Made by a program: the position numbers and the translations under genes. Below the pieces are notes generated by a model, which saw only the letters and a list, made by a program, of their open reading frames with translations, was not told the origin of the DNA and did no database searches. From Candidatus Scalindua sp. (GTDB lineage: Bacteria > Planctomycetota > Brocadiia > Brocadiales > Scalinduaceae), in the NCBI GenBank assembly GCA_031316235.1, contig JALDRA010000001.1, positions 900,001-932,000 on the forward strand: 32,000 nt of DNA. The letters are read 5' to 3'. Of the stretch, positions 5,981 through 28,293 are shown piece by piece (the first letter of the stretch is position 1; every line of letters starts with the position of its first letter).

Positions 5981-6056
5981 CGGGGCGTAGCGCAGCTTGG
6001 CTTAGCGCACTTGAATGGGGTTCAAGAGGCCGCTGGTTCGAATCCAGTCGCCCCGA
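5981..6056 (+). tRNA. tRNA-Pro (anticodon GGG)
   Basis: Hand-folded cloverleaf, 76 nt. 7 bp acceptor stem CGGGGCG/CGCCCCG, D stem GCGC/GCGC, anticodon stem CTTGA/TCAAG with loop ATGGGGT (anticodon GGG at 6017-6019). 5 nt variable loop. T arm GCTGG-TTCGAAT-CCAGT. Discriminator A. No encoded CCA. Confidence 0.9.
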
Positions 6057-6073
6057 TCATTTATACCGATGAC

Positions 6074-6323
6074 TTACGATAAACAGGCTTTGACATTTTT
6101 TTCAAATTGTGCCAATTTTGTGCCATTGGCATTTTCAAAGACCTCTTCTGCTCTGTTTTGCATCAACTGATCAAGCGCATTAACCGCTTTCCTTTTGTGT
6201 CCTGGCGCAAGATGTGCACTCCTCATAGTCATCGCTAGCGATCTGTGCCCAAGTAAGTTCCTTGATACCCGCTAAATCAATTCCAGCCATGACAAGTTGG
6301 CTCGCAAACGTATGCCGCAAGTC
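6074..6323 (-). pseudogene. Tyrosine recombinase/phage-type integrase, C-terminal remnant
   Basis: The minus strand reads DLRHTFASQLVMAGIDLAGIKEL. After a 1-nt frameshift it continues LGHRSLAMTMRSAHLAPGHKRKAVNALDQL...*. Only about the last 80 codons remain. The catalytic-Tyr position (R-Y-x-H) reads Ser. It lies 18 nt from the tRNA-Pro 3' end. Confidence 0.7.
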
Positions 6324-7824: not shown

Positions 7825-8173
7825 TAAAAATGCATTCTTCCTTTTTGTCTATTCTCGCAGTTGTTTAAAAATCTTTGCTTCTGTTAAAGTAAAAGAGATT
7901 GAAGCTGTAACAAAGGACAGATAGATAACATTTCCCAACATAGCCGCAAAGGTTTTTCTTCCCTACCATAAGCCATATGCCATAAGCCTATCAGCAAACG
8001 CATCCATTCCTGCAGTGAGCCACATGTTGTAACATGTGCTTCTTTCTGAGAATTACCAGTTCCCTGCATTGACGAAGCTCTTTCCCGGGAATATAACTCC
8101 CTTTGAGAAGCCCCATACGTAACAGACTAGCCCGTCCGAACGGATTCATCCGGGCGGATATGTACATCCAAAC

Positions 8174-8285
8174 TATACTCATCTCATAATGGTTTTCGGA
8201 TAAAATCCGAGATAAAATTGAGCGAGTATACCTTCACCAAGATTTGGTTTCCGGTAAAACCGAAAACCAAATCGGTTTTAGTATA
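8174..8285 (-). repeat. Interspersed hairpin-forming repeat family, copy B (inverted orientation)
   Basis: The reverse complement reads TATACTAAAACCGATTTGGTTTTCGGTTTTACCGGAAACCAAATC...TCTCGGATTTTATCCGAAAACCATTATGAGATGAGTATA. This is collinear with copy D. Confidence 0.7.
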
Positions 8286-8597
8286 CAACATACAGGGTTT
8301 ACTATTGATAGTATTTCTCGATCGTTTGACTTTGACATTGCTATCTCCTTTCAGATTAATTCCTTCTTGACTATTACATAGTGTGAGATAGCGATTTTAT
8401 CATAATCTGAACCTAATCGCATGTTTCATGCTTCGTTGTGACTGGTAGGCCATGGGTGTTAGTTAAGTTTTTGGAACTCATAAATTGTTAAGATTTGTAG
8501 TACTTCCTGAAGTTAGTAATCAGTAGAATAACAAAGGTGTTGAGCTGCATCATGTAGTGATGCAGCTCTTATCAAAGTAAAAAAAGGAGGTTCGAAA

Positions 8598-12040: not shown

Positions 12041-12166
12041 ATATAACGCCTGAGCTAAGCTAACCCGTGTGACGGAGAAAACTATGAATAAAAACAAAAT
12101 TAACAAAGAATCTTAAATTTTAAACCCGCACATGACAAAGGGGTTAGCTTGTGCGATTTGTTATAC
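12041..12166 (-). repeat. attC-like 126-bp imperfect inverted repeat, copy 1
   Basis: Minus strand: TATAAC-AAATCGCAC-AAGCTAACCCC...(AT-rich, about 70 nt)...GGGTTAGCTT-AGCTCAGGC-GTTATAT. The outer boxes pair (TATAAC/GTTATA) and the inner boxes pair over 10 bp. The 9-nt spacers between them do not pair. The DUF2442 stop codon is the TAA inside AAGCTAACC. Confidence 0.6.
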
Positions 12167-12688: not shown

Positions 12689-12808
12689 ATATGACTCAAT
12701 TGATTTAGTTGTGCTTACACGTCTATTATTGTGAGTATCGATTTGCATGCTAAAACAATATACGTATGTATTCAAGACAAAAATGATCAAATTTGGTCCA
12801 ACAAGAGG

Positions 12809-12904
12809 TTCTTTCAGAAATCGTAATAAGAATTCTCTCTTATGACATCTGTGTGTAATATGCCAAACATACTCTTGTATGTAATGCCTATTTGCACGCG
12901 CCAA
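12809..12904 (-). pseudogene. IS200/RAYT-like (Y1) transposase, N-terminal fragment
   Basis: ARANRHYIQEYVWHITHRCHKREFLLRF matches the recalled N-terminus of Y1 transposase-like proteins (RANR.Y.PGYVWHITHRCH.KEFLLKF). Homology is lost after about 32 codons. The ORF-track ORF 12509-12904 is a chimera of this fragment and DUF4160. Confidence 0.5.
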
Positions 12905-13070
12905 AATGCAAATTCCTTAAAACCATCTTTTTTACACCAAAAAGTAGTATTTAAGACAAAAAACATCCTTATTCTTGAAGCATAATCATTCTATACCAAG
13001 AACTTACCATGGTCAGACCCTATGCTCTCTTGAATACGGTGCTAACGAAACATGTTCAGTCCAGATCCAA

Positions 13071-14375
13071 TTATGAAGATGGCCCAGTACCCGGTGAAGC
13101 ATTTGTCACCGCGTAGCTTGCGGCATCTCGGACGACCGCCAGGTCTTCATCCAAATCAAGCGCTTTGCATGCGCGTTTCAGTGCCAGCTGCCCATGATAG
13201 ATAGCAGCATCCCTCATTTCAGAATGTCCAATCGATGTCAGAGTGCCCAGCGCCTTCTGTAGCCGCACTGCGACTTCGACCGTCCCCGCACCGTCACGGG
13301 AAATCGCTGTGAACGCGTCATCGAACATATCGCGGATCGAAATCTGAGGCACTTCTACGAGATTATACTTGCACGTTTTCGTGTCGTCTCCTTTCGACGG
13401 GTCATTCCACAGAGCAAAGAGTCGAAGCAGTACGCCGATAATATTGATCGCCGTACCGGGGTCATTTACAGCCGGTGACAGAGCACGACCGGCTATTTCC
13501 GATAGAACGACCAGACCAAAACGTGGGTCATCATCGAAAAGACGTTCGTTTCCAATCTGAAACGACTCGACAGCGCACGTGTAGTCAATTTCAGACCGGT
13601 TGCCTGATGAGCTGCTCACATACGCCAGTACCCGATCAGGTGCAGCAAACGTACCAGGCAATGCCGCTACCACCACCCGTGCGCTGGCTTCCTCGGCCCA
13701 CACTTGAATTGCGGCCATGTCGATATGCTGCACGTATCCAATATTCTTTGCAAATACTGGTTGCCCCCGTACCCGAGATTTATCCTCCGGCATACCATAT
13801 AGGCTTGGCGCAGCACGTCGTCGTTTCAGGGCTTCAACCGTTGCCTTTTCAACCTTGTCAATCGTCGATCCAAGGCGCCCAAGGCGGGCGATGCTGTCAA
13901 CCCAGCGCACAAACGTAAAGATTACCATCCCGAATACTATCGTCGTCAGGATAAAGAGGATGAACAGACCTGCCTTTTCAAAGTAGGCGTTTTTAACCGC
14001 CGTTAGAGCCACGATGCTGAAAATGAAAGCGCCAACGAAAGTCGAAAGCGCGTTCTGGGATACGTCGTCGGCAACGACCAAACCAAATGAACGCGGAGTA
14101 GCGGTGCTACTAGCTGAAGCATATGCCGACACCATCGACGCCACCGAAAAGGTGGCGATTACCAACATACTGGCCGCCATGACGGACAGCAACGTCTCGA
14201 TAGAGTCAAGTGCGATCACGGGCACGAACTGTGCTAGCGCGGTGTCATCAGCAAGTTTCGCCACGAAGGCCGCACCGACCGACAACAAGCAAACCGCCAA
14301 TGGTTTCACCCAAAGGCGCTTACGCAAACGATTGATGAGAAACCTGAGACGGTCTGCTGAAATGGTAGATTCCAT
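13071..14375 (-). CDS. DUF2254-like integral membrane protein (GC-rich, foreign composition)
   Basis: 434 aa. N-terminal RLRKRLWVKPLAVCLLSVGAAFVA followed by about 4 TM segments and a soluble C-terminal half. RBS AAGGGAGAA lies upstream of the ATG. Hand count is 39/60 G+C at 13081-13140, against 16/60 at 12901-12960. Confidence 0.7.
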   Translation of the reverse strand: MESTISADRLRFLINRLRKRLWVKPLAVCLLSVGAAFVAKLADDTALAQFVPVIALDSIETLLSVMAASMLVIATFSVASMVSAYASASSTATPRSFGLVVADDVSQNALSTFVGAFIFSIVALTAVKNAYFEKAGLFILFILTTIVFGMVIFTFVRWVDSIARLGRLGSTIDKVEKATVEALKRRRAAPSLYGMPEDKSRVRGQPVFAKNIGYVQHIDMAAIQVWAEEASARVVVAALPGTFAAPDRVLAYVSSSSGNRSEIDYTCAVESFQIGNERLFDDDPRFGLVVLSEIAGRALSPAVNDPGTAINIIGVLLRLFALWNDPSKGDDTKTCKYNLVEVPQISIRDMFDDAFTAISRDGAGTVEVAVRLQKALGTLTSIGHSEMRDAAIYHGQLALKRACKALDLDEDLAVVRDAASYAVTNASPGTGPSS

Positions 14376-14393
14376 AATGTTCTCCCTTGCACA

Positions 14394-14465
14394 GTCTAAC
14401 GGATTGCATCACCTGCCGGAATGAAGCGAAGCGGAATTCCGGTCAGTGTGCATGCTTTTGTTATT
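14394..14465 (-). other. 72-bp attC-like recombination-site candidate
   Basis: Minus strand: AATAAC-AAAA-GCATgCACaCTGaCCGGAAT-(13 nt loop)-ATTCCGGCAGGTGATGC-AATCC-GTTAGAC. The stems pair perfectly except for three single-base bulges (lower case). The 3' box GTTAGAC fits GTTRRRY. The site ends 18 nt before the DUF2254 ATG. Confidence 0.55.
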
Positions 14466-14593
14466 CGCCGTTCACACAAACGTTAATATTCGGCTTAGAC
14501 GTTGTAAGAACTTTCAGAATGAGTTTGATTGAGCTTTCTACTTGGCCTTGATAAACCAATGATTCCAGAACAGGCAGAAGTGATGGTCATCAG

Positions 14594-15214
14594 CTACGCT
14601 ACGCCAGATATCTGAATGAAATCGCTCTTAAGGTTGTAAAGTTTCTGCAATGTCCCGGACATTCCAAGCCTGAGAAGCTGCAACTCCTTGCGAAAGGCCA
14701 GGACTCTACTTTTCGCTTCATGGACCTTACCAGTACTGACCATGTCGAGTACCTGTGTAGCCTCTGTCTGTAGCTGCTCGGCGACATTTTCCATATACAT
14801 GAACATGTCAACATCGGCTTCGCTTAGCATATTGAATACCCAGCGTATCGAGTCGAGTTCTTCGCCCTTCAGGACTGCTGCAAACCACCGGTCGAGATAT
14901 TTATAGAAGATGTTCCCGATAATGTGGCAGTGCCCTCGTCCATCTTTGACTTCGTTGAGCAACCCTCCACCCTCAATCCTCAACAAGACCTCTGAACCCT
15001 TTTCCATCGCATCGCTGTCGATGCCAAGTTTCAGGAATTGAGTTATTGCTGTGTCCATAACCTGCCAGGTTTTACCGATCTCATCGAGGGCCTCCGCAAG
15101 TTTTAAAGCGGCCAAGTCCGGCTGCATCTTTAACTTTGCCACAAGTTTTCCGATGATACCTAATGCCTCATCAGCTTTTTTGATCGATTCAAGTGCTGCT
15201 GCTATTTCTAACAT
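14594..15214 (-). CDS. Hypothetical protein, predicted mostly alpha-helical, no recognised domain
   Basis: 206 aa ORF with an ATG start preceded by GGAGGT 8 nt upstream. Composition is intermediate between host and GC-rich neighbour. It is followed by the 72-bp attC-like site. Confidence 0.6.
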   Translation of the reverse strand: MLEIAAALESIKKADEALGIIGKLVAKLKMQPDLAALKLAEALDEIGKTWQVMDTAITQFLKLGIDSDAMEKGSEVLLRIEGGGLLNEVKDGRGHCHIIGNIFYKYLDRWFAAVLKGEELDSIRWVFNMLSEADVDMFMYMENVAEQLQTEATQVLDMVSTGKVHEAKSRVLAFRKELQLLRLGMSGTLQKLYNLKSDFIQISGVA

Positions 15215-15303: not shown

Positions 15304-17371
15304 CCTGGATTTTCACGTAATTAATTAAACTAAGAAAGCAGAGCGAAATTCTATCTCAATGTCATTATAACAGGTAAATTTTTTAGCCAAGGCAATCTGA
15401 AAGGCATATTAATTAATCCAGACTGAAGTAAAATTGGATTATTGGCTCTTTTATTAAGTCTCACTTCTAAATTATTTTTCCCAATAACAATTTTAGCAGG
15501 TGTATCAATAAATTTTCTAAAAATTACATCCGGGTTACTTTGTTCATAACCTTTGAGTTTTTGGGCTAGTATATGATAAATGGCTTGAGCAACAAGGGTA
15601 AGCAGGACATCAAAGTCAATTCGAATAGCAACGGATGAAGACAAAGAGCCGTTATGAAAAAAACCTACACCTGTTGAGATTGAATTTTCTATAAGCATCC
15701 TCAGGGCATATCGTGAAATAAGGTCGGAACAGGAAACCTTCTTATCGTTTGTGATCAGGATTGTGGGAAGGTCATGCCCCAAATCTTTAATAAACATCTG
15801 TCTGATTTTTCCAGTATAACTACCAAGGGTGATTTCTTGATCAATCACTTTTGGAGTTCTGAATTTTCTCGCTACATTGCGAAGCTCTATTTTACGCCAA
15901 GCGGATAAAGAGGTATTAGCAACTTCCTGGAGGACTTTCGGTGTTCGTCGCCTCAGGGTAATAAATGTAATTCCCATCTGGTTGAGTTTTGAAAGGTTCT
16001 CATAGGTTGTCAGCTTTGAGTCAAATACCAGATGTGGAGGATTCTGACCGGTTTGTTTCTTCCAGAAGTCAATAAACCTCAAAATTTCATTCGCTTCTTC
16101 TCCTTTCCGCAGGGCGGAGTTGCTATAGCAGAAGATTTTTGATTTTGCATCCTGAGCAAAGAACACAAGTATTGCCTTTTGCCGTCGGCTCCTCATGGAA
16201 ACATAGTGTTTCTCTACAACATCATCTTCTCCGAAATATGGAAGTGATTGAAAATCAAGATTAATGGAATCTCCATCTAGGATGTTATTTCCCCTGAGTT
16301 TCTTGAGCCATAAATGCATAAACTTTAAATTATCGGCATGAGTAATTCTCTCGGAATATTCACAAATATAGGCAGTTTTTGGCAGGACGTTAAGCCCTAC
16401 ACCCAATGCAGCCCCTTCATCAAAAGCCAAATCCATAATATGGGTCTTGCGCTCTTTGGCAATGAGCTTTAATAACAAAGAGGAGAGAAATGCATTTTCA
16501 GCAGGAATCATTTTTGACCCATACCAGTCCATATTCTTAATAATCTTATGAACGTCCATTTCTGCCAATATTTTAAGTAGCAAAAATACACCCCCTATAC
16601 GCGTTTCTATAACTCGGGGTGTCAGAGCAAGTTGTCTTATATCTGCATATGCTGCCTGTTCCGGCCTTGGTCGAGTAAGCATTTCCTCTTCCCTTCTTCT
16701 TGGGAGCCTGGAAAAACCCTCCTCTTTCAAGATGCTCCAAATAGATACACCACTGAGTTGAATTCCTTCTTCTTTTAAGGTGATCTGGATGTCCTTTACG
16801 GAATAATTTTTTTTTCGAAGGTCAATAACACGATTTCTTGAGTGATCTTTCTTGGGGCCAAATTTAGGTCCTGGTTTAGTTTGGACAAAAAACTTTCTAT
16901 CAGGATCATTTCTGAATTTATGACACAGAACGTGTAAGGCCCCTGGTGAATAACCAAAACGCTTGGAAATAGTTACAACAGGGAGGTTTTGAACAAAATA
17001 TGCTCTTAGAGCTTCGTACTGTCGTTGTTTTGGAAGCTGTGGCTCTAAAAAGAATCTCGACTCGTCACTTAGGCAATTACTTAACTTATCTTGTAATTGT
17101 GTCTTGCTTGTTTTTGTTACCATGTTGATAGAATAGCTAAATATATAGTATTTTTAAGGTAAAGTATGAATCAGCTACAATTCTACCACCATTCTACTAA
17201 CTACACAACAACTATTTACTTTAACTATTTAGATAAGTAAGAAAGGTTGTAAGCTTGGTAGCAACAAAGACAGTCCTCAAGTAAAACAAAGGTTTTGAAC
17301 AATTTTAGATAGCTCAAATTCGAAAAATATGGTTAAATCCTTAGGTGAATTAGCTTACGTGGAAATCCAGG
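15304..17371 (-). mobile_element. Insertion sequence (2068 bp) with a single 590-aa transposase; family not assigned
   Basis: Terminal inverted repeats CCTGGATTTTCACGTAA (15304-15320) and TTACGTGGAAATCCAGG (17355-17371) match at 16/17, and weaker similarity extends to about 32 bp. It is flanked by the direct repeat CTAA (15300-15303 and 17372-17375). Confidence 0.75.
15351..17123 (-). CDS. Transposase with N-terminal HTH domains (DDE-type presumed)
   Basis: 590 aa filling the IS. The N-terminal region (QRQYEALRAYFVQNLPVVTISKRFGYSPGALHVLCHKF, then VIDLRKKNYSVKDIQITLKEEGIQLSGVSIWSILKEEGF) looks like tandem HTH DNA-binding modules. Confidence 0.75.
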   Translation of the reverse strand: MVTKTSKTQLQDKLSNCLSDESRFFLEPQLPKQRQYEALRAYFVQNLPVVTISKRFGYSPGALHVLCHKFRNDPDRKFFVQTKPGPKFGPKKDHSRNRVIDLRKKNYSVKDIQITLKEEGIQLSGVSIWSILKEEGFSRLPRRREEEMLTRPRPEQAAYADIRQLALTPRVIETRIGGVFLLLKILAEMDVHKIIKNMDWYGSKMIPAENAFLSSLLLKLIAKERKTHIMDLAFDEGAALGVGLNVLPKTAYICEYSERITHADNLKFMHLWLKKLRGNNILDGDSINLDFQSLPYFGEDDVVEKHYVSMRSRRQKAILVFFAQDAKSKIFCYSNSALRKGEEANEILRFIDFWKKQTGQNPPHLVFDSKLTTYENLSKLNQMGITFITLRRRTPKVLQEVANTSLSAWRKIELRNVARKFRTPKVIDQEITLGSYTGKIRQMFIKDLGHDLPTILITNDKKVSCSDLISRYALRMLIENSISTGVGFFHNGSLSSSVAIRIDFDVLLTLVAQAIYHILAQKLKGYEQSNPDVIFRKFIDTPAKIVIGKNNLEVRLNKRANNPILLQSGLINMPFRLPWLKNLPVIMTLR

Positions 17372-17410
17372 CTAATGATGTCTTCAACGATATGCACACA
17401 CAACTCACCG

Positions 17411-17534
17411 CATAACGGCGAGCTAAGCTAACCCGTTTAGCGAAAAAAATTTGTAAATACGAATAAAATTAACAAAGAGTTAAAAATTTGCAAACCGCAC
17501 GTAATAGAGGGGTTAGCTTCAGCGCCTCGTTTGG
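17411..17534 (-). repeat. attC-like 124-bp imperfect inverted repeat, copy 2
   Basis: Minus strand: CCAAAC-GAGGCGCTG-AAGCTAACCCC...GGGTTAGCTT-AGCTCGCC-GTTATG. It is collinear with copy 1 throughout, including the AT-rich centre (TTGTTAATTTT). It overlaps the brnA stop codon. Confidence 0.6.
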
Positions 17535-17767
17535 GGCTTTTCATGTTGTGTTGTGTAAAAATCAAGCAGCTTGCGGATCATCGCTTGATAAGATGTATGA
17601 TGCTTCCTGGCTTCTTTCTTAAAAAAATCAACACTAGACTTACTCAAAGACATGGTGACTTTTACATTTTCTTTCTTAAAGATCAAATCTTTTGGTGGCG
17701 GTAAAAAATCATCAATAACCTTTAATTTGCCAAGAGGCTCATCGGTGTACTTAATTTTGCTTTTCAT
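17519..17767 (-). CDS. brnA: BrnA antitoxin (CopG/RHH-like)
   Basis: MKSKIKYTDEPLGKLKVIDDFLPPPKDLIFKKENVKVTMSLSKSSVDFFKKEARKHHTSYQAMIRKLLD is the typical BrnA pattern. It overlaps the brnT 3' end by 17 nt. Confidence 0.8.
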   Translation of the reverse strand: MKSKIKYTDEPLGKLKVIDDFLPPPKDLIFKKENVKVTMSLSKSSVDFFKKEARKHHTSYQAMIRKLLDFYTTQHEKPQTRR

Positions 17768-18101: not shown

Positions 18102-18226
18102 CCCTAACGCTATGGCGTGCAACCCCGTGTGGCAAATAAAATAGCAGATAACATAAGACAAGAAAAGAGCCTGGAAATAATTGAATCGCAAATGACGGAG
18201 GGGTTGGCTCCACTGATTTGTTAGAA
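18102..18226 (-). repeat. attC-like 125-bp imperfect inverted repeat, copy 3 (diverged)
   Basis: Minus strand: TCTAAC-AAATCAGTGG-AGCCAACCCC...CACGGGGTTG-CACGCCATAGC-GTTAGGG. It shares TAACAAATC, AACCCC, ACACGGG(G)TT and GCGTTA with copy 1. It lies 20 nt after the RelE-like stop codon. Confidence 0.55.
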
Positions 18227-18922: not shown

Positions 18923-18962
18923 CAGTCAAGTAGGGCAGGATTCAGGCTGCCCTACTTGACTG
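18923..18962 (-). terminator. Perfect 16-bp stem hairpin overlapping the antiporter stop codon
   Basis: CAGTCAAGTAGGGCAG (18923-18938), an 8-nt loop, then CTGCCCTACTTGACTG (18947-18962). One arm is the last codons plus the stop of the antiporter gene. No U-tract follows on the transcribed strand, so terminator function is uncertain. Confidence 0.35.
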
Positions 18963-20604
18963 TCACACCAAACAGGTTATCAACAGCCTTCTCGGCCGCA
19001 TCGGCATATGGTATCAGCACACGGTCAAAGCCAGCGTACTCCAGTTGCTCGATATTAGAGGTGGTGTAGGCCGTTACCGCCACGCACCCTTTGTAATCAT
19101 GATCGCGCAGACTATTGAGCAGTGCGAGGTTTACAGGCATCTCACGTACGCTGCTCACGACCCAACGCACCTCCCCGAGTGGCAGGGTGGCGAGGAACTC
19201 AGGGTCTTCAGCATCACCGTAACGCACCGTGTAACCCTGCCTTACGTGCCGGCGTACCAGATCGGGATCGAAATCCACGCCGATCAACCGGTGGCCTCGC
19301 TTTCGGAGTTCCCGTGCAACCCCGGAGCCGAACCGCCCCAGACCGAACAGGATCACATCAACACCGTTCTCTTCTGTAGACAACTTCTGAGCCTCTTCCC
19401 GGTGAGCTCTCCTGCGCTCGAATACAACCAGCCAGGAGGAAATCCGTTCGTAGAGGGGATGTGAATACAGGATCATGTAGGTGGAAGCACTAATGGTAAT
19501 CAACCCCACCAGGGTGATGAGGCCCATTGTGTCTGCGTCGATATGGCCCAAGTTCAGGCCCAAAGACCCCAGGATCAGAGAGAATTCGCTGATCTGGGCA
19601 ACCGTAAGACCGGCCAGAAAACTGGTGCGCCTTCGATAACCCATGGCACCCAGGATAACCATCACGATCAACGGGTTGCCGATGAGCACGAACAGTGAAA
19701 GGATAATGGCCGGCACCACATGTGCTCCGAGCGTCGACAACTCCAGCCCGGCACCAAGATCAATGAAGAAGAACAGCAGCAGAAAATCCCTTAGAGTTAC
19801 TAAGCGTGCGCCGATAGCTTCACGGTAGGGCGTGGAGGCCAGTGATACACCGGCGATAAAAGCGCCCACCTCCTTGCTGAAACCTAAATATTCGCACGCA
19901 GCACCCATGGATACCGCCCAGGCGATGGCGAACAGTAACAGCAACTCCGAAGAACGGGCCAGCTGATGCAGCAGCGGTGTCAGCACATAGCGCATCAACA
20001 GCCCAATGGCGGCAATAAACAGACATCCCTTTAACAATAACTCAATCGCCTGCCAGCTCAGGCTGGCCTTATCACCGACCTGGGACAGCACGGTAAGACC
20101 AATCATCACCAACACCACAACGATATCCTGAACAATGAGGAAACCGATGGCGATACGCCCGTGCAGCGTATCCACCTCATGCTTGTCGGACAGCAGCTTG
20201 ACGATGATAATGGTGCTGGAGAAGGTCAACGCCACTGCCACGTAGAGGGAGGTCAAAGGGCTCATCCCCAGGACAATGGCGATAAAGTAGCCGACAACAG
20301 AGGTAAAGAGGACCTGACCCAGTCCGGAGGCTAACGCCACCAGACCCATGGTGCGGATGATGTGAAGATCCAGCTTGAGTCCCACGACAAACAACAGCAC
20401 TGCGATACCCATCTGTGCAAGCAGATCGACCTTGTCGTCTGCCGAGACCCAGCCGAGTACGGACGGCCCAACGAGGATACCTACTGCGATGAAGGCAACG
20501 ATAAGCGGCTGACGCAACCGTAGACAGATAAAGCCAGTGACGGCGGCCACCAATAGGAGCACCGCTATTTCAGTAAAGATGTTGCTAAATACGAAGTTCA
20601 CCAT
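18952..20604 (-). CDS. CPA2-family cation:proton antiporter with C-terminal RCK/TrkA-N domain (Kef-like), GC-rich
   Basis: 550 aa with about 12 TM segments, then the Rossmann motif ILFGLGRFGSGVARELRKRGHRLIGVDFDP. Hand count is 36/60 G+C at 19201-19260, far above the surrounding DNA. Confidence 0.85.
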   Translation of the reverse strand: MVNFVFSNIFTEIAVLLLVAAVTGFICLRLRQPLIVAFIAVGILVGPSVLGWVSADDKVDLLAQMGIAVLLFVVGLKLDLHIIRTMGLVALASGLGQVLFTSVVGYFIAIVLGMSPLTSLYVAVALTFSSTIIIVKLLSDKHEVDTLHGRIAIGFLIVQDIVVVLVMIGLTVLSQVGDKASLSWQAIELLLKGCLFIAAIGLLMRYVLTPLLHQLARSSELLLLFAIAWAVSMGAACEYLGFSKEVGAFIAGVSLASTPYREAIGARLVTLRDFLLLFFFIDLGAGLELSTLGAHVVPAIILSLFVLIGNPLIVMVILGAMGYRRRTSFLAGLTVAQISEFSLILGSLGLNLGHIDADTMGLITLVGLITISASTYMILYSHPLYERISSWLVVFERRRAHREEAQKLSTEENGVDVILFGLGRFGSGVARELRKRGHRLIGVDFDPDLVRRHVRQGYTVRYGDAEDPEFLATLPLGEVRWVVSSVREMPVNLALLNSLRDHDYKGCVAVTAYTTSNIEQLEYAGFDRVLIPYADAAEKAVDNLFGVTVK

Positions 20605-28042: not shown

Positions 28043-28182
28043 TATACTAAAACCGCTCTGGTTTTAGATTTTTCTAAAAACCAAAGCCTGGTTGCTGGTA
28101 TCCCCGGACAAAAAACGCCGAGGACCTTACCCGCTCCGTTTTTTTTCGGATTTTATCCGAAATCCAGTATACGATGAGTATA
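28043..28182 (+). repeat. Interspersed hairpin-forming repeat family, copy D (longest, used as reference)
   Basis: TATACTAAAACCGCTCTGGTTTTAGATTTTTCTAAAAACCAAAGCCTGGTTGCTGGTATCCCCGGACAAAAAACGCCGAGGACCTTACCCGCTCCGTTTTTTTTCGGATTTTATCCGAAATCCAGTATACGATGAGTATA. It contains at least two internal hairpins (TGGTTTTAG/CTAAAAACCA and CGGATTTTATCCG). Confidence 0.75.
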
Positions 28183-28293
28183 CAAGGTGAAGAACAACTT
28201 CGTAACCGGATCTTACTGATGAGCTTCATGATTACAGAGTTGTTACCGCAACAAAGGAGTCGTCGGGTGGTTTTCGTTCAACCACTATAATTT

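What the first reader, a model, noticed from the sequence alone, without database searches (positions are those of the whole stretch)
14394..14465. 72-bp imperfect palindrome with three single-base bulges and a GTTAGAC end: the most canonical attC-like site here
Between the 206-aa unknown gene and the DUF2254 gene the minus strand reads AATAAC-AAAA-GCATgCACaCTGaCCGGAAT-TCCGCTTCGCTTC-ATTCCGGCAGGTGATGC-AATCC-GTTAGAC.

The arms pair as GCAT/ATGC, CAC/GTG, CTG/CAG and CCGGAAT/ATTCCGG. Three unpaired single bases (g, a, a) sit on one arm only. This is the kind of extrahelical-base asymmetry that sets strand choice in attC recombination.

The outer boxes pair over TAAC/GTTA and are separated from the inner stem by unpaired 4-5 nt spacers. 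GTTAGAC fits GTTRRRY exactly.

The site ends 18 nt before an RBS and ATG (GTTAGACTGTGCAAGGGAGAACATTATG), as expected at a cassette junction. It would make the two GC-rich genes separate cassettes rather than an operon.
Basis: seen in the sequence. Interest (0 to 1): 0.7.

Follow-up and report, generated by a model that had tools for sequence, protein, structure and literature searches.

The report
Integron attC site between two cassettes
The 72-bp imperfect palindrome is a genuine integron cassette recombination site (attC) sitting in a small integrase-less cassette cluster in an anammox bacterium (Candidatus Scalindua); this is a correct call but an ordinary, well-known kind of element.

Summary
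The hairpin exists as described. With the canonical 7-nt R'' box it is 73 nt (window 14466..14394, minus strand).

Evidence that it is an attC:
- I built a covariance model (R1) from 79 independent metagenomic attC sites. R1 recovers known class 1 integron attCs on the correct strand.
- R1 scores this site 71.1 bits (E 8.5e-19), full length, minus strand only. The next best hit in the 32-kb window is 11 bits.
- The three bulged bases lie at positions 16, 20 and 24 of the R''-L'' arm. These are the positions of the extrahelical bases in Vibrio VCR2/1.
- The flanking genes behave as separate cassettes. DUF2254 homologues (83-99% aa identity) have four different upstream neighbours, and homology starts at the GTTRRRY box. 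The 206-aa gene has several different downstream neighbours. One Nitrospirales copy keeps a 19/20-nt remnant of this site's 3' arm.

Context:
- A second model (R2) finds three 126-nt attCs of an anammox-specific type on the same strand (18226-18102, 17535-17410, 12166-12041).
- The window holds no integron integrase, so the locus is a CALIN.
- Related Scalindua genomes carry intI next to arrays that mix both attC types.

This is a new member of a known kind, of low to moderate interest.

The parts
14394..14466 (-). attC recombination site (73 nt) belonging to the 206-aa gene cassette
   Evidence: R1 covariance model: 71.1 bits, E 8.5e-19, model positions 1-72 of 72, minus strand only. DNA fold -12.7 kcal/mol, z -2.75.
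14460..14466 (-). R'' box GAATAAC (conserved AAC)
   Evidence: Sequence; aligned to model positions 1-7.
14456..14459 (-). 5' half of the unpaired central spacer (AAAA)
   Evidence: Unpaired in the folds; aligned to the spacer of R1.
14436..14455 (-). L'' arm GCATgCACaCTGaCCGGAAT, with extrahelical bases at 14451 (g16), 14447 (a20) and 14443 (a24)
   Evidence: Folds. Positions 16/20/24 match the G16/T20/T24 bottom-strand extrahelical bases of VCR2/1 described in PMC2727003.
14423..14435 (-). Variable terminal structure: 13-nt loop TCCGCTTCGCTTC
   Evidence: The loop motif TCCGCTYCGCTYC is shared with at least 120 metagenomic attC loci, with the DUF2254 attC of L008, and nearly (TCCGCTGCGCTCC) with the blaVIM-2 attC.
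14406..14422 (-). L' arm ATTCCGGCAGGTGATGC
   Evidence: Folds. A 19/20-nt remnant (TTCATTCCaGCAGGTGATGC) follows the 206-aa homologue in the Nitrospirales contigs L153/L154.
14401..14405 (-). 3' half of the unpaired central spacer (AATCC)
   Evidence: Unpaired in the folds.
14394..14400 (-). R' box GTTAGAC (GTTRRRY); expected crossover between G and TT, so this is the cassette junction
   Evidence: Sequence. Homology of the DUF2254 cassette to L008 (GTTAGGC) and L009 (GTTGGGC) begins here.
14594..15214 (-). 206-aa ORF of unknown function: the cassette gene that owns the attC
   Evidence: ORF. No Pfam or NCBIfam hit. 36 homologues, mostly on short metagenomic contigs, with varying downstream neighbours.
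13071..14375 (-). DUF2254 membrane-protein gene (53% GC): the next cassette, which lacks its own attC in this window
   Evidence: Pfam PF10011, 299 bits. 98.8% nt identity to Scalindua AMX11 over 13032-14392 only. The own attC is present in L003 and L008 but absent here.
15304..17371 (-). Insertion sequence (590-aa transposase 15351-17123) inserted in the 5' leader of the 206-aa cassette; TSD TTAG
   Evidence: Terminal inverted repeats CCTGGATTT(C/T)CACGTAA and flanking TTAG. Weak IS1380/IS1634 similarity.
17410..17535 (-). 126-nt attC of the anammox-specific type, ending the BrnT/BrnA toxin-antitoxin cassette
   Evidence: R2 model 105.1 bits, E 1.8e-23.
18102..18226 (-). 126-nt attC of the anammox-specific type, upstream of the BrnTA cassette
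   Evidence: R2 model 77.9 bits, E 8.2e-17.
12041..12166 (-). 126-nt attC of the anammox-specific type, ending the DUF4160/DUF2442 (DhiT-like) toxin-antitoxin cassette
   Evidence: R2 model 123.5 bits, E 5.6e-28. The cassette is 86-88% identical to L147 (Scalindua) and L130 (Kuenenia).

Best explanation
The palindrome is an attC site, the single-strand-folding recombination site at the 3' end of an integron gene cassette.

What it belongs to:
- It belongs to the cassette that carries the 206-aa gene.
- Its R' box (G|TTAGAC) is the junction with the next cassette, which carries DUF2254.

How it would work (inferred from established attC biology):
- The bottom strand (the window's plus strand) folds into a hairpin.
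- The R box (TAAC/GTTA) and L box stems are separated by an unpaired 4/5-nt spacer.
- The three extrahelical bases (bottom-strand C16, T20, T24) mark that strand for binding by an integron integrase.
- The integrase cleaves in the R box and exchanges one strand with attI or another attC. This excises or inserts the cassette.

Locus context:
- The site lies in a cluster of four same-strand attCs with no integrase in the 32-kb window, so the locus is a CALIN.
- The cluster sits inside a tRNA-flanked island of a Candidatus Scalindua genome.
- The cluster is partly decayed: it has an IS insertion, one lost attC and one mutated R''.

What is shown and what is inferred:
- Shown: structure, family membership, strand, cassette boundaries, and the existence of intI plus mixed arrays in related Scalindua genomes.
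- Inferred: that an IntI acting in trans can still recombine this copy.
For: - Independent model R1 (79 metagenomic sites; 14 of 20 predicted pairs show compensatory changes) scores the site 71.1 bits, E 8.5e-19. The match is full length and on the minus strand only.
- R1 finds bona fide attCs of class 1 integrons on the cassette strand.
- R1 finds 8 same-strand attCs in the L008 array.
- R1 finds 11 attCs beside a TIGR02249 integron integrase in L114.
- 46 of 50 family sites follow an open frame on the model's top strand.
- The DUF2254 cassette occurs behind four different neighbours, with homology starting at GTTRRRY.
- In L008 the DUF2254 cassette is bracketed by two attCs.
- The 206-aa gene has variable downstream neighbours.
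- A remnant of this very attC arm lies after the 206-aa homologue in L153.
- Three further attCs lie on the same strand within 2.2-2.9 kb steps.
- Scalindua relatives have intI next to arrays that interleave both attC types.
- The extrahelical-base geometry 16/20/24 is as in VCR2/1.
Against: - No integron integrase or recognisable intI pseudogene lies in the window.
- None of the 120 closest IntI relatives sits on the 4.15-Mb source contig.
- R'' (GAATAAC) departs from RYYYAAC, and only 5 of 7 R-box positions pair.
- The first extrahelical base is C, not the commonly conserved G, on the bottom strand. The blaVIM-2 attC shares this, and G16C had little effect in VCR.
- The neighbouring DUF2254 cassette lacks its own attC and the array carries an IS, so the locus may be a fossil.
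- The published IntegronFinder model could not be run.
- No recombination experiment exists.
Confidence: 0.93

Rival explanations
1. It is an attC by descent but is now an inert fossil. The cluster was separated from its integrase, or the integrase was lost. The site persists only as a leftover hairpin between two co-transcribed foreign genes.
For: - No intI lies in the 32 kb.
- An IS sits inside the cassette leader.
- The DUF2254 attC is deleted.
- The R'' of the 17535-17410 attC is mutated, CCCAAAC against CCCTAAC in S. arabica.
- No close IntI was found on the source contig among the top 120 hits.
Against: - Every structural determinant of this particular site is intact, and it scores higher than validated clinical attCs.
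- Other Scalindua genomes encode full-length integron integrases.
- CALIN cassettes can in principle be mobilised in trans (PMC4889954).
Confidence: 0.4
2. It is an ordinary transcription terminator or attenuator hairpin for the 206-aa gene, and the resemblance to attC is coincidental.
For: - It is a stable stem-loop in an intergenic region.
- On the plus strand the stem is followed by TTTTGTTATT.
Against: - On the transcribed (minus) strand no T-run follows the stem (AATCCGTTAGAC).
- The terminator scan reports nothing there.
- The plus-strand T-run is simply the complement of the R''+spacer (AATAACAAAA), and no credible plus-strand gene ends there.
- A terminator would not explain the conserved AAC/GTT boxes, the one-sided bulges or E 8.5e-19.
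- The two genes are never neighbours elsewhere.
Confidence: 0.03
3. It is the subterminal hairpin of another single-strand DNA mobile element (an IS200/IS605-type or REP/MITE-like repeat), suggested by the Y1-transposase fragment nearby.
For: - A truncated Y1 (IS200-like/RayT-like) transposase N-terminus lies at about 12810-12904.
- Y1_Tnp genes occur in the AMX11 array.
Against: - There is no second copy in the window.
- The family is found in ordered same-strand arrays next to integron integrases, not next to Y1 transposases.
- The Y1 fragment is 1.5 kb away, beyond the DUF2254 gene.
Confidence: 0.02

Closest known systems
Short (about 68-72 nt) attC sites with a TCCGCTYCGCTYC-type loop, e.g. 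the attC of the blaVIM-2 cassette in class 1 integrons
   Same: - Same length class.
- Same R''-spacer-L''-loop-L'-spacer-R' layout.
- Same top-strand 'g' and 'a' bulges.
- Near-identical loop (TCCGCTGCGCTCC in blaVIM-2).
- Both score highly with R1 (66.4 against 71.1 bits).
   Different: - The window site has a third bulge (a20) and a 4-nt rather than 5-nt 5' spacer.
- It has a weaker R'' box.
- It sits in a chromosomal integrase-less cluster of an anammox planctomycete, not in a mobile class 1 integron.
VCR2/1 (Vibrio cholerae repeat), the structurally characterised attC of the V. cholerae chromosomal integron
   Same: - Three extrahelical bases at positions 16, 20 and 24 of the R''-L'' arm.
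- A 4-nt R''-L'' spacer.
- Bottom-strand T at positions 20 and 24 (PMC2727003).
   Different: - VCR is about 129 nt with a large branched variable terminal structure. This site has a 13-nt loop.
- The first extrahelical base is G in VCR and C here.
[quoted passage not shown] 2016, PMC4889954)
   Same: - At least two attCs on one strand, less than 4 kb apart.
- No intI nearby.
- Cassettes are mostly toxin-antitoxin pairs and unknown genes.
- An IS is present (for the definition).
   Different: - It mixes two structurally distinct attC classes.
- One cassette has lost its attC.
Chromosomal integrons of Planctomycetes / anammox bacteria
   Same: - Scalindua MAGs carry TIGR02249 integron integrases beside arrays that contain both the 126-nt anammox-type attC and R1-type attCs (L139, L135, L131).
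- NCBI already annotates 'integron integrase [Candidatus Scalindua sp.]'.
- A Planctomycetes attC model exists in the literature (PMC8352920).
   Different: The window cluster is not adjacent to an integrase.

Membership tests
attC (integron cassette recombination site) | R'' and R' boxes with conserved AAC ... GTT; R' fits GTTRRRY | tested here: met
   GAATAAC ... GTTAGAC. R'' fits RYYYAAC only partly; 5 of 7 R-box positions pair.
attC (integron cassette recombination site) | Imperfect L''/L' inverted repeats that form a stem separated from the R box by an unpaired central spacer | tested here: met
   DNA folds show 17 stem pairs (4+3+3+7), plus two predicted pairs inside the loop, with unpaired spacers of 4 and 5 nt.
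attC (integron cassette recombination site) | Two or three extrahelical bases on the R''-L'' arm only | tested here: met
   g16, a20, a24 (14451, 14447, 14443). The positions are identical to VCR2/1.
attC (integron cassette recombination site) | Significant score with an attC covariance model, on one strand | tested here: met
   In-session model R1, with the window site excluded and validated on class 1 attCs: 71.1 bits, E 8.5e-19, minus strand only.
attC (integron cassette recombination site) | Call by the published IntegronFinder model (attc_4.cm) | not testable with these tools
Rfam holds no attC family (one search returned only a tRNA).
attC (integron cassette recombination site) | Lies just 3' of an ORF on the same strand, and the next cassette starts at the R' box | tested here: met
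   The 206-aa ORF ends 128 nt upstream, and the DUF2254 ATG lies 18 nt downstream. 46 of 50 family members follow an ORF on the same strand.
attC (integron cassette recombination site) | Flanking genes are independently mobile, with breakpoints at the R' box | tested here: met
   DUF2254 has four upstream contexts, with homology starting at GTTRRRY. The 206-aa gene has four other downstream neighbours.
attC (integron cassette recombination site) | Recombined by an integron integrase via the folded bottom strand | not testable with these tools
   Needs an in vivo or in vitro recombination assay.
Complete integron | intI gene (TIGR02249 / IntI-specific domain) adjacent to the array, with attI | tested here: not met
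   phmmer with IntI1 and tblastn with Scalindua IntI find nothing significant in the window. The tyrosine-recombinase remnants at 6074-6320 have no NCBIfam match.
CALIN (Cury et al. 2016) | At least two attC sites on the same strand less than 4 kb apart, without a nearby integron integrase | tested here: met
   Four attCs lie on the minus strand at 18226-18102, 17535-17410, 14466-14394 and 12166-12041. No intI lies within the window, which extends at least 12 kb on either side of the cluster. Definition.
Rho-independent terminator | GC-rich stem followed by a U-run on the transcribed strand | tested here: not met
   The stem is followed by AATCCGTTAGAC on the minus strand, and the site is not reported by the terminator scan.

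The most novel reading that the evidence does not exclude
The cluster records recent integrase-driven cassette traffic in an uncultured anammox bacterium.

- The same DUF2254 cassette is of proteobacterial type (53% GC).
- It is 98.8% identical in two Scalindua genomes, yet it sits behind different neighbours in each, with the break at the R' box.
- Scalindua integrons interleave two very different attC classes: 73-nt GC-rich sites and 126-nt AT-rich sites.
- This would mean that one planctomycete IntI handles both classes and recruits cassettes across phyla, with integrase-less clusters like this one acting as a trans-mobilisable reservoir.
Probability: 0.4. Interest if true: 0.45.

Novelty: new member of a known kind. 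Interest (0 to 1): 0.3.

Why it matters
- It gives correct annotation. The two GC-rich genes are separate integron cassettes, not an operon. The surrounding 6-kb stretch is an integrase-less cassette cluster inside a genomic island of an anammox bacterium.
- It adds a documented case of horizontally acquired cassettes in Candidatus Scalindua. The DUF2254 homologues closest outside Scalindua that carry a name are proteobacterial.
- It shows two structurally distinct attC classes co-residing in one array. This bears on how promiscuous integron integrases are and on cassette flow between phyla in marine and anoxic habitats.
- It does not reveal a new mechanism.

Tried and rejected
- A naive scan for NNNNAAC...GTTNNNN pairs with 6 of 7 complementarity and low fold energy gave dozens of false positives and missed the site. 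A stricter single-hairpin version worked.
- Rfam gathering search of the window found only a tRNA; there is no attC family in Rfam.
- Exact look-up of the window's DUF2254 protein is not on record.
- The two contigs carrying the exact 206-aa protein are identical 1-kb fragments and add nothing.
- R1 found no full-length attC directly after the 206-aa homologues in L151-L154. It found only weak local L-box matches in L155 and L156 (9.2 and 11.1 bits). Evidence that those copies keep an attC is therefore weak, apart from the 19/20 remnant in L153.
- R1 found no attC upstream of DUF2254 in L009, which has only the GTTGGGC box.
- The search for an IntI on the source genome's 4.15-Mb contig was inconclusive.
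- Structure prediction of the 206-aa protein gave a confident all-helical model (pLDDT 89) with no significant PDB match (best E 0.14).
- The terminator reading and the IS200/REP reading were considered and rejected (see rivals).

Full report
**Observation**

The minus strand of window 14466..14394 reads GAATAAC-AAAA-GCATgCACaCTGaCCGGAAT-TCCGCTTCGCTTC-ATTCCGGCAGGTGATGC-AATCC-GTTAGAC. There are 17 stem pairs, three one-sided single-base bulges, unpaired 4- and 5-nt spacers and a 13-nt loop. The 73-mer folds at -12.7 kcal/mol (z -2.75) on the minus strand and at -13.6 kcal/mol (z -3.1) on the plus strand. With flanks included the z-score drops to between -1.1 and -1.6. Thermodynamics alone would therefore be weak evidence. 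The 206-aa ORF (14594-15214) lies upstream and the DUF2254 ORF (13071-14375; PF10011, 299 bits) downstream, both on the minus strand. The ATG lies 18 nt after GTTAGAC. The only corrections are that the canonical site is 73 nt and that R'' fits RYYYAAC only partly.

**Setting**

The window comes from a genome of about 42% GC. The DUF2254 protein is 99% identical to one from Candidatus Scalindua sp. AMX11, and the 206-aa protein is annotated in a Candidatus Scalindua sp. MAG. A tRNA at 5981-6056 is followed by tyrosine-recombinase remnants. After these comes a region of about 17 kb rich in toxin-antitoxin pairs, transposases and two GC-rich foreign blocks.

**Comparative evidence for cassette boundaries: DUF2254**

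DUF2254 homologues at 83-99% amino-acid identity sit behind different neighbours:
- In AMX11 (L003-L007), a group II intron remnant, confirmed by Rfam RF00029 at L003 7904-7980.
- In L008, a small HTH toxin-antitoxin pair.
- In L009, an unrelated partial ORF.

Alignment shows that similarity among window, L008 and L009 begins at CCGTTRGRC, which is the R' box: GTTAGAC, GTTAGGC and GTTGGGC respectively. BLAST places the 98.8%-identical block shared with AMX11 at window 13032-14392, starting 2 nt past the R' box.

L008 is a textbook array. All genes are on one strand and eight attCs are detected. DUF2254 is bracketed by a 107-nt attC and by its own 72-nt attC, GCCTAAC-AAATC-...-TCCGCTCCGCTCC-...-GTTAGGC. 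That attC has the same length and loop motif as the window site.

In the window, homology to L003 and L008 stops about 38 nt after the DUF2254 stop codon, just before where R'' should start. The DUF2254 cassette has therefore lost its own attC here.

**Comparative evidence for cassette boundaries: the 206-aa gene**

The 206-aa gene has 36 homologues, with no Pfam or NCBIfam family. Elsewhere it is followed by a 259-aa gene, an SRAP gene, a 423-aa gene or a 117-aa gene.

In the Nitrospirales contigs L153 and L154 (86.5% nt identity), a 19/20-nt remnant of this site's 3' arm (TTCATTCCaGCAGGTGATGC) follows the gene. This links the attC to the 206-aa cassette. L155 and L156 have long attC-like sites after the gene, but the model support there is weak.

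**Covariance-model test**

A metagenome scan for TAAC-N-TCCGCTYCGCTYC-N-GTTAG returned at least 120 loci. After filtering, 79 non-redundant sites were aligned (A5). RNAalifold found compensatory changes in 14 of 20 predicted pairs, with conserved unpaired bulge columns. Model R1 was built from A5, which does not include the window site.

With filters off, R1 scores window 14466..14394 at 71.1 bits, E 8.5e-19. The match is full length and on the minus strand only. The next best hit in the window is 11 bits, E 1.5.

Controls:
- On three class 1 integrons fetched with IntI1, R1 finds the following attCs, all on the cassette strand: blaVIM-2 (66.4 bits), aac(3)-Ia (43.9), aac(6')-Il (34.9), aadA5 (34.7), aac(6')-Ib4 (34.3) and arr-3 (17.2). 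It misses only dfrA17.
- It finds 11 attCs next to a TIGR02249 integron integrase (424 bits) in L114.
- 46 of 50 family sites follow an open frame on the model's top strand, against 27 of 50 on the other strand.

The caveat is that the family was retrieved with a pattern derived partly from the candidate's loop. However, the stems, bulges and spacers were unconstrained by that pattern, and the model generalises to attCs with other loops.

**Anatomy compared with known attCs**

The bulges lie at positions 16, 20 and 24 counted from the start of R''. The spacer is 4 nt. This is exactly the geometry of VCR2/1, whose bottom-strand G16, T20 and T24 direct strand choice (PMC2727003). Here the bottom-strand bases are C16, T20 and T24. 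The blaVIM-2 attC also has top-strand g and a bulges, and G16C had only minor effects in VCR.

**The rest of the cluster**

Two repeats of about 126 nt, 84% identical, lie at the stop codons of DUF2442 and BrnA. They belong to a family found only in anammox genomes, except for one Sulfurimicrobium MAG: Scalindua spp., Kuenenia and Brocadiaceae. They have the full attC layout:
- R'' (yATAAC or CCTAAC);
- a 5-nt spacer;
- L'' GCTgAAGCTAACCCC;
- a long AT-rich terminal structure;
- L' GGGTTAGCTTAGC;
- a spacer;
- R' GTTAKRC.

The paired cells reach 85.5%, against 19-50% when the partners are slid.

Model R2, built without the window copies, finds three such sites in the window. All are on the minus strand: 12166..12041 (123.5 bits), 17535..17410 (105.1 bits) and 18226..18102 (77.9 bits).

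In Scalindua loci L139, L135 and L131 these sites interleave with R1-type attCs. They lie next to divergently oriented integron integrases scoring 389-490 bits against a cut-off of 265.

The window itself has no IntI. It therefore fits the CALIN definition of Cury et al. (PMC4889954).

**Reconstructed cassette order (minus strand)**

1. attC 18226-18102.
2. BrnT/BrnA, then attC 17535-17410.
3. The 206-aa gene, with its leader split by a 2,068-bp IS at 17371-15304 (TSD TTAG), then attC 14466-14394.
4. DUF2254, with its own attC deleted.
5. About 330 nt of AT-rich sequence containing a Y1-transposase fragment.
6. DUF4160/DUF2442, then attC 12166-12041.

**Rivals**

- A terminator is not supported. 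There is no T-run on the transcribed strand and the site is not called by the scan. A terminator also cannot explain the conserved boxes and one-sided bulges.
- An IS200/REP-type hairpin is not supported. The site is single-copy in the window, and the family is associated with IntI arrays.
- The realistic uncertainty is whether this copy is still active or is a fossil. The cluster shows decay, and no IntI was found on the source contig among the 120 closest relatives. The site itself is intact.

**Novelty**

Integron integrases are already annotated in Scalindua MAGs. A Planctomycetes attC model has been published (PMC8352920). CALINs are a described class. The finding is therefore a correct identification of a new member of a known kind.

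The mildly interesting aspects are these:
- two structurally distinct attC classes co-exist in anammox arrays;
- a proteobacterial-type DUF2254 cassette has evidently been acquired;
- a near-identical copy of that cassette occupies a different array context in AMX11.

Noticed in passing
window 12041-12166, 17410-17535, 18102-18226 (minus strand): A 126-nt AT-rich attC family that, apart from one Sulfurimicrobium MAG, is found only in anammox bacteria (Scalindua, Kuenenia, Brocadiaceae). It has the conserved L box GCTgAAGCTAACCCC / GGGTTAGCTTAGC. In L139, L135 and L131 it lies next to integron integrases, interleaved with classical short attCs.
   Followed up: yes
window 15304-17371: A 2,068-bp insertion sequence sits inside the leader of the 206-aa cassette. 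It has a 590-aa transposase with only weak IS1380/IS1634 similarity and no Pfam hit, terminal inverted repeats CCTGGATTT(C/T)CACGTAA, and a 4-bp TTAG target duplication.
   Followed up: partly
window 12701-13032: The DUF2254 cassette has lost its own attC. Homology to AMX11 and L008 ends at 13032, just before R''. The attC is replaced by about 330 nt of 33%-GC sequence that includes an N-terminal fragment of a Y1 (IS200/RayT-like) transposase, fused in frame to the DUF4160 ORF call.
   Followed up: partly
L003 7142-7980 (Candidatus Scalindua sp. AMX11): A group II intron remnant abuts the 5' junction of the DUF2254 cassette. It comprises RVT_N and GIIM ORF fragments and Rfam RF00029 domain V/VI at 7904-7980. 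The R' box there is altered (CCGGTGCGG instead of CCGTTAGRC). This recalls attC-targeting class C introns, but here the intron has the same orientation as the cassette.
   Followed up: partly
window 8174-8288; also 1142-1256 and 28077-28186: A dispersed repeat of about 115 nt containing a 15-bp inverted repeat (8241-8273). It is 97% identical to L003 10420-10534 and also present at L003 4334-4435 and 11477-11557. Its nature is unknown.
   Followed up: no
window 5981-6320: A tRNA gene (5981-6056, +) is followed immediately by two short ORFs on the minus strand. They look like C-terminal fragments of a tyrosine recombinase (RHTFAS..., ...MTMRSAHLAPGHKRK). This is probably the decayed integrase of a tRNA-targeting island that contains the cassette cluster. 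No NCBIfam match.
   Followed up: partly
window 14594-15214: The 206-aa cassette protein has 36 homologues and invariant G92, G94 and C96, with near-invariant R93 and H95 (motif GRGHC). Its predicted fold is a confident all-helical bundle (pLDDT 89, pTM 0.84) with no significant PDB match. Function unknown.
   Followed up: partly
window 18923-18962 and 18952-20604: A perfect 16-bp inverted repeat (8-nt loop) overlaps the stop codon of a 55%-GC Kef-type Na+/H+ exchanger-TrkA_N gene. This gene is another apparently foreign gene in the island. Neither model detects an attC next to it.
   Followed up: no
window 17529-17535: The R'' box of the attC after BrnA reads CCCAAAC. The orthologous cassette in Candidatus Scalindua arabica (L134) has CCCTAAC. 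This point mutation in the conserved TAAC is consistent with decay of the cluster.
   Followed up: partly
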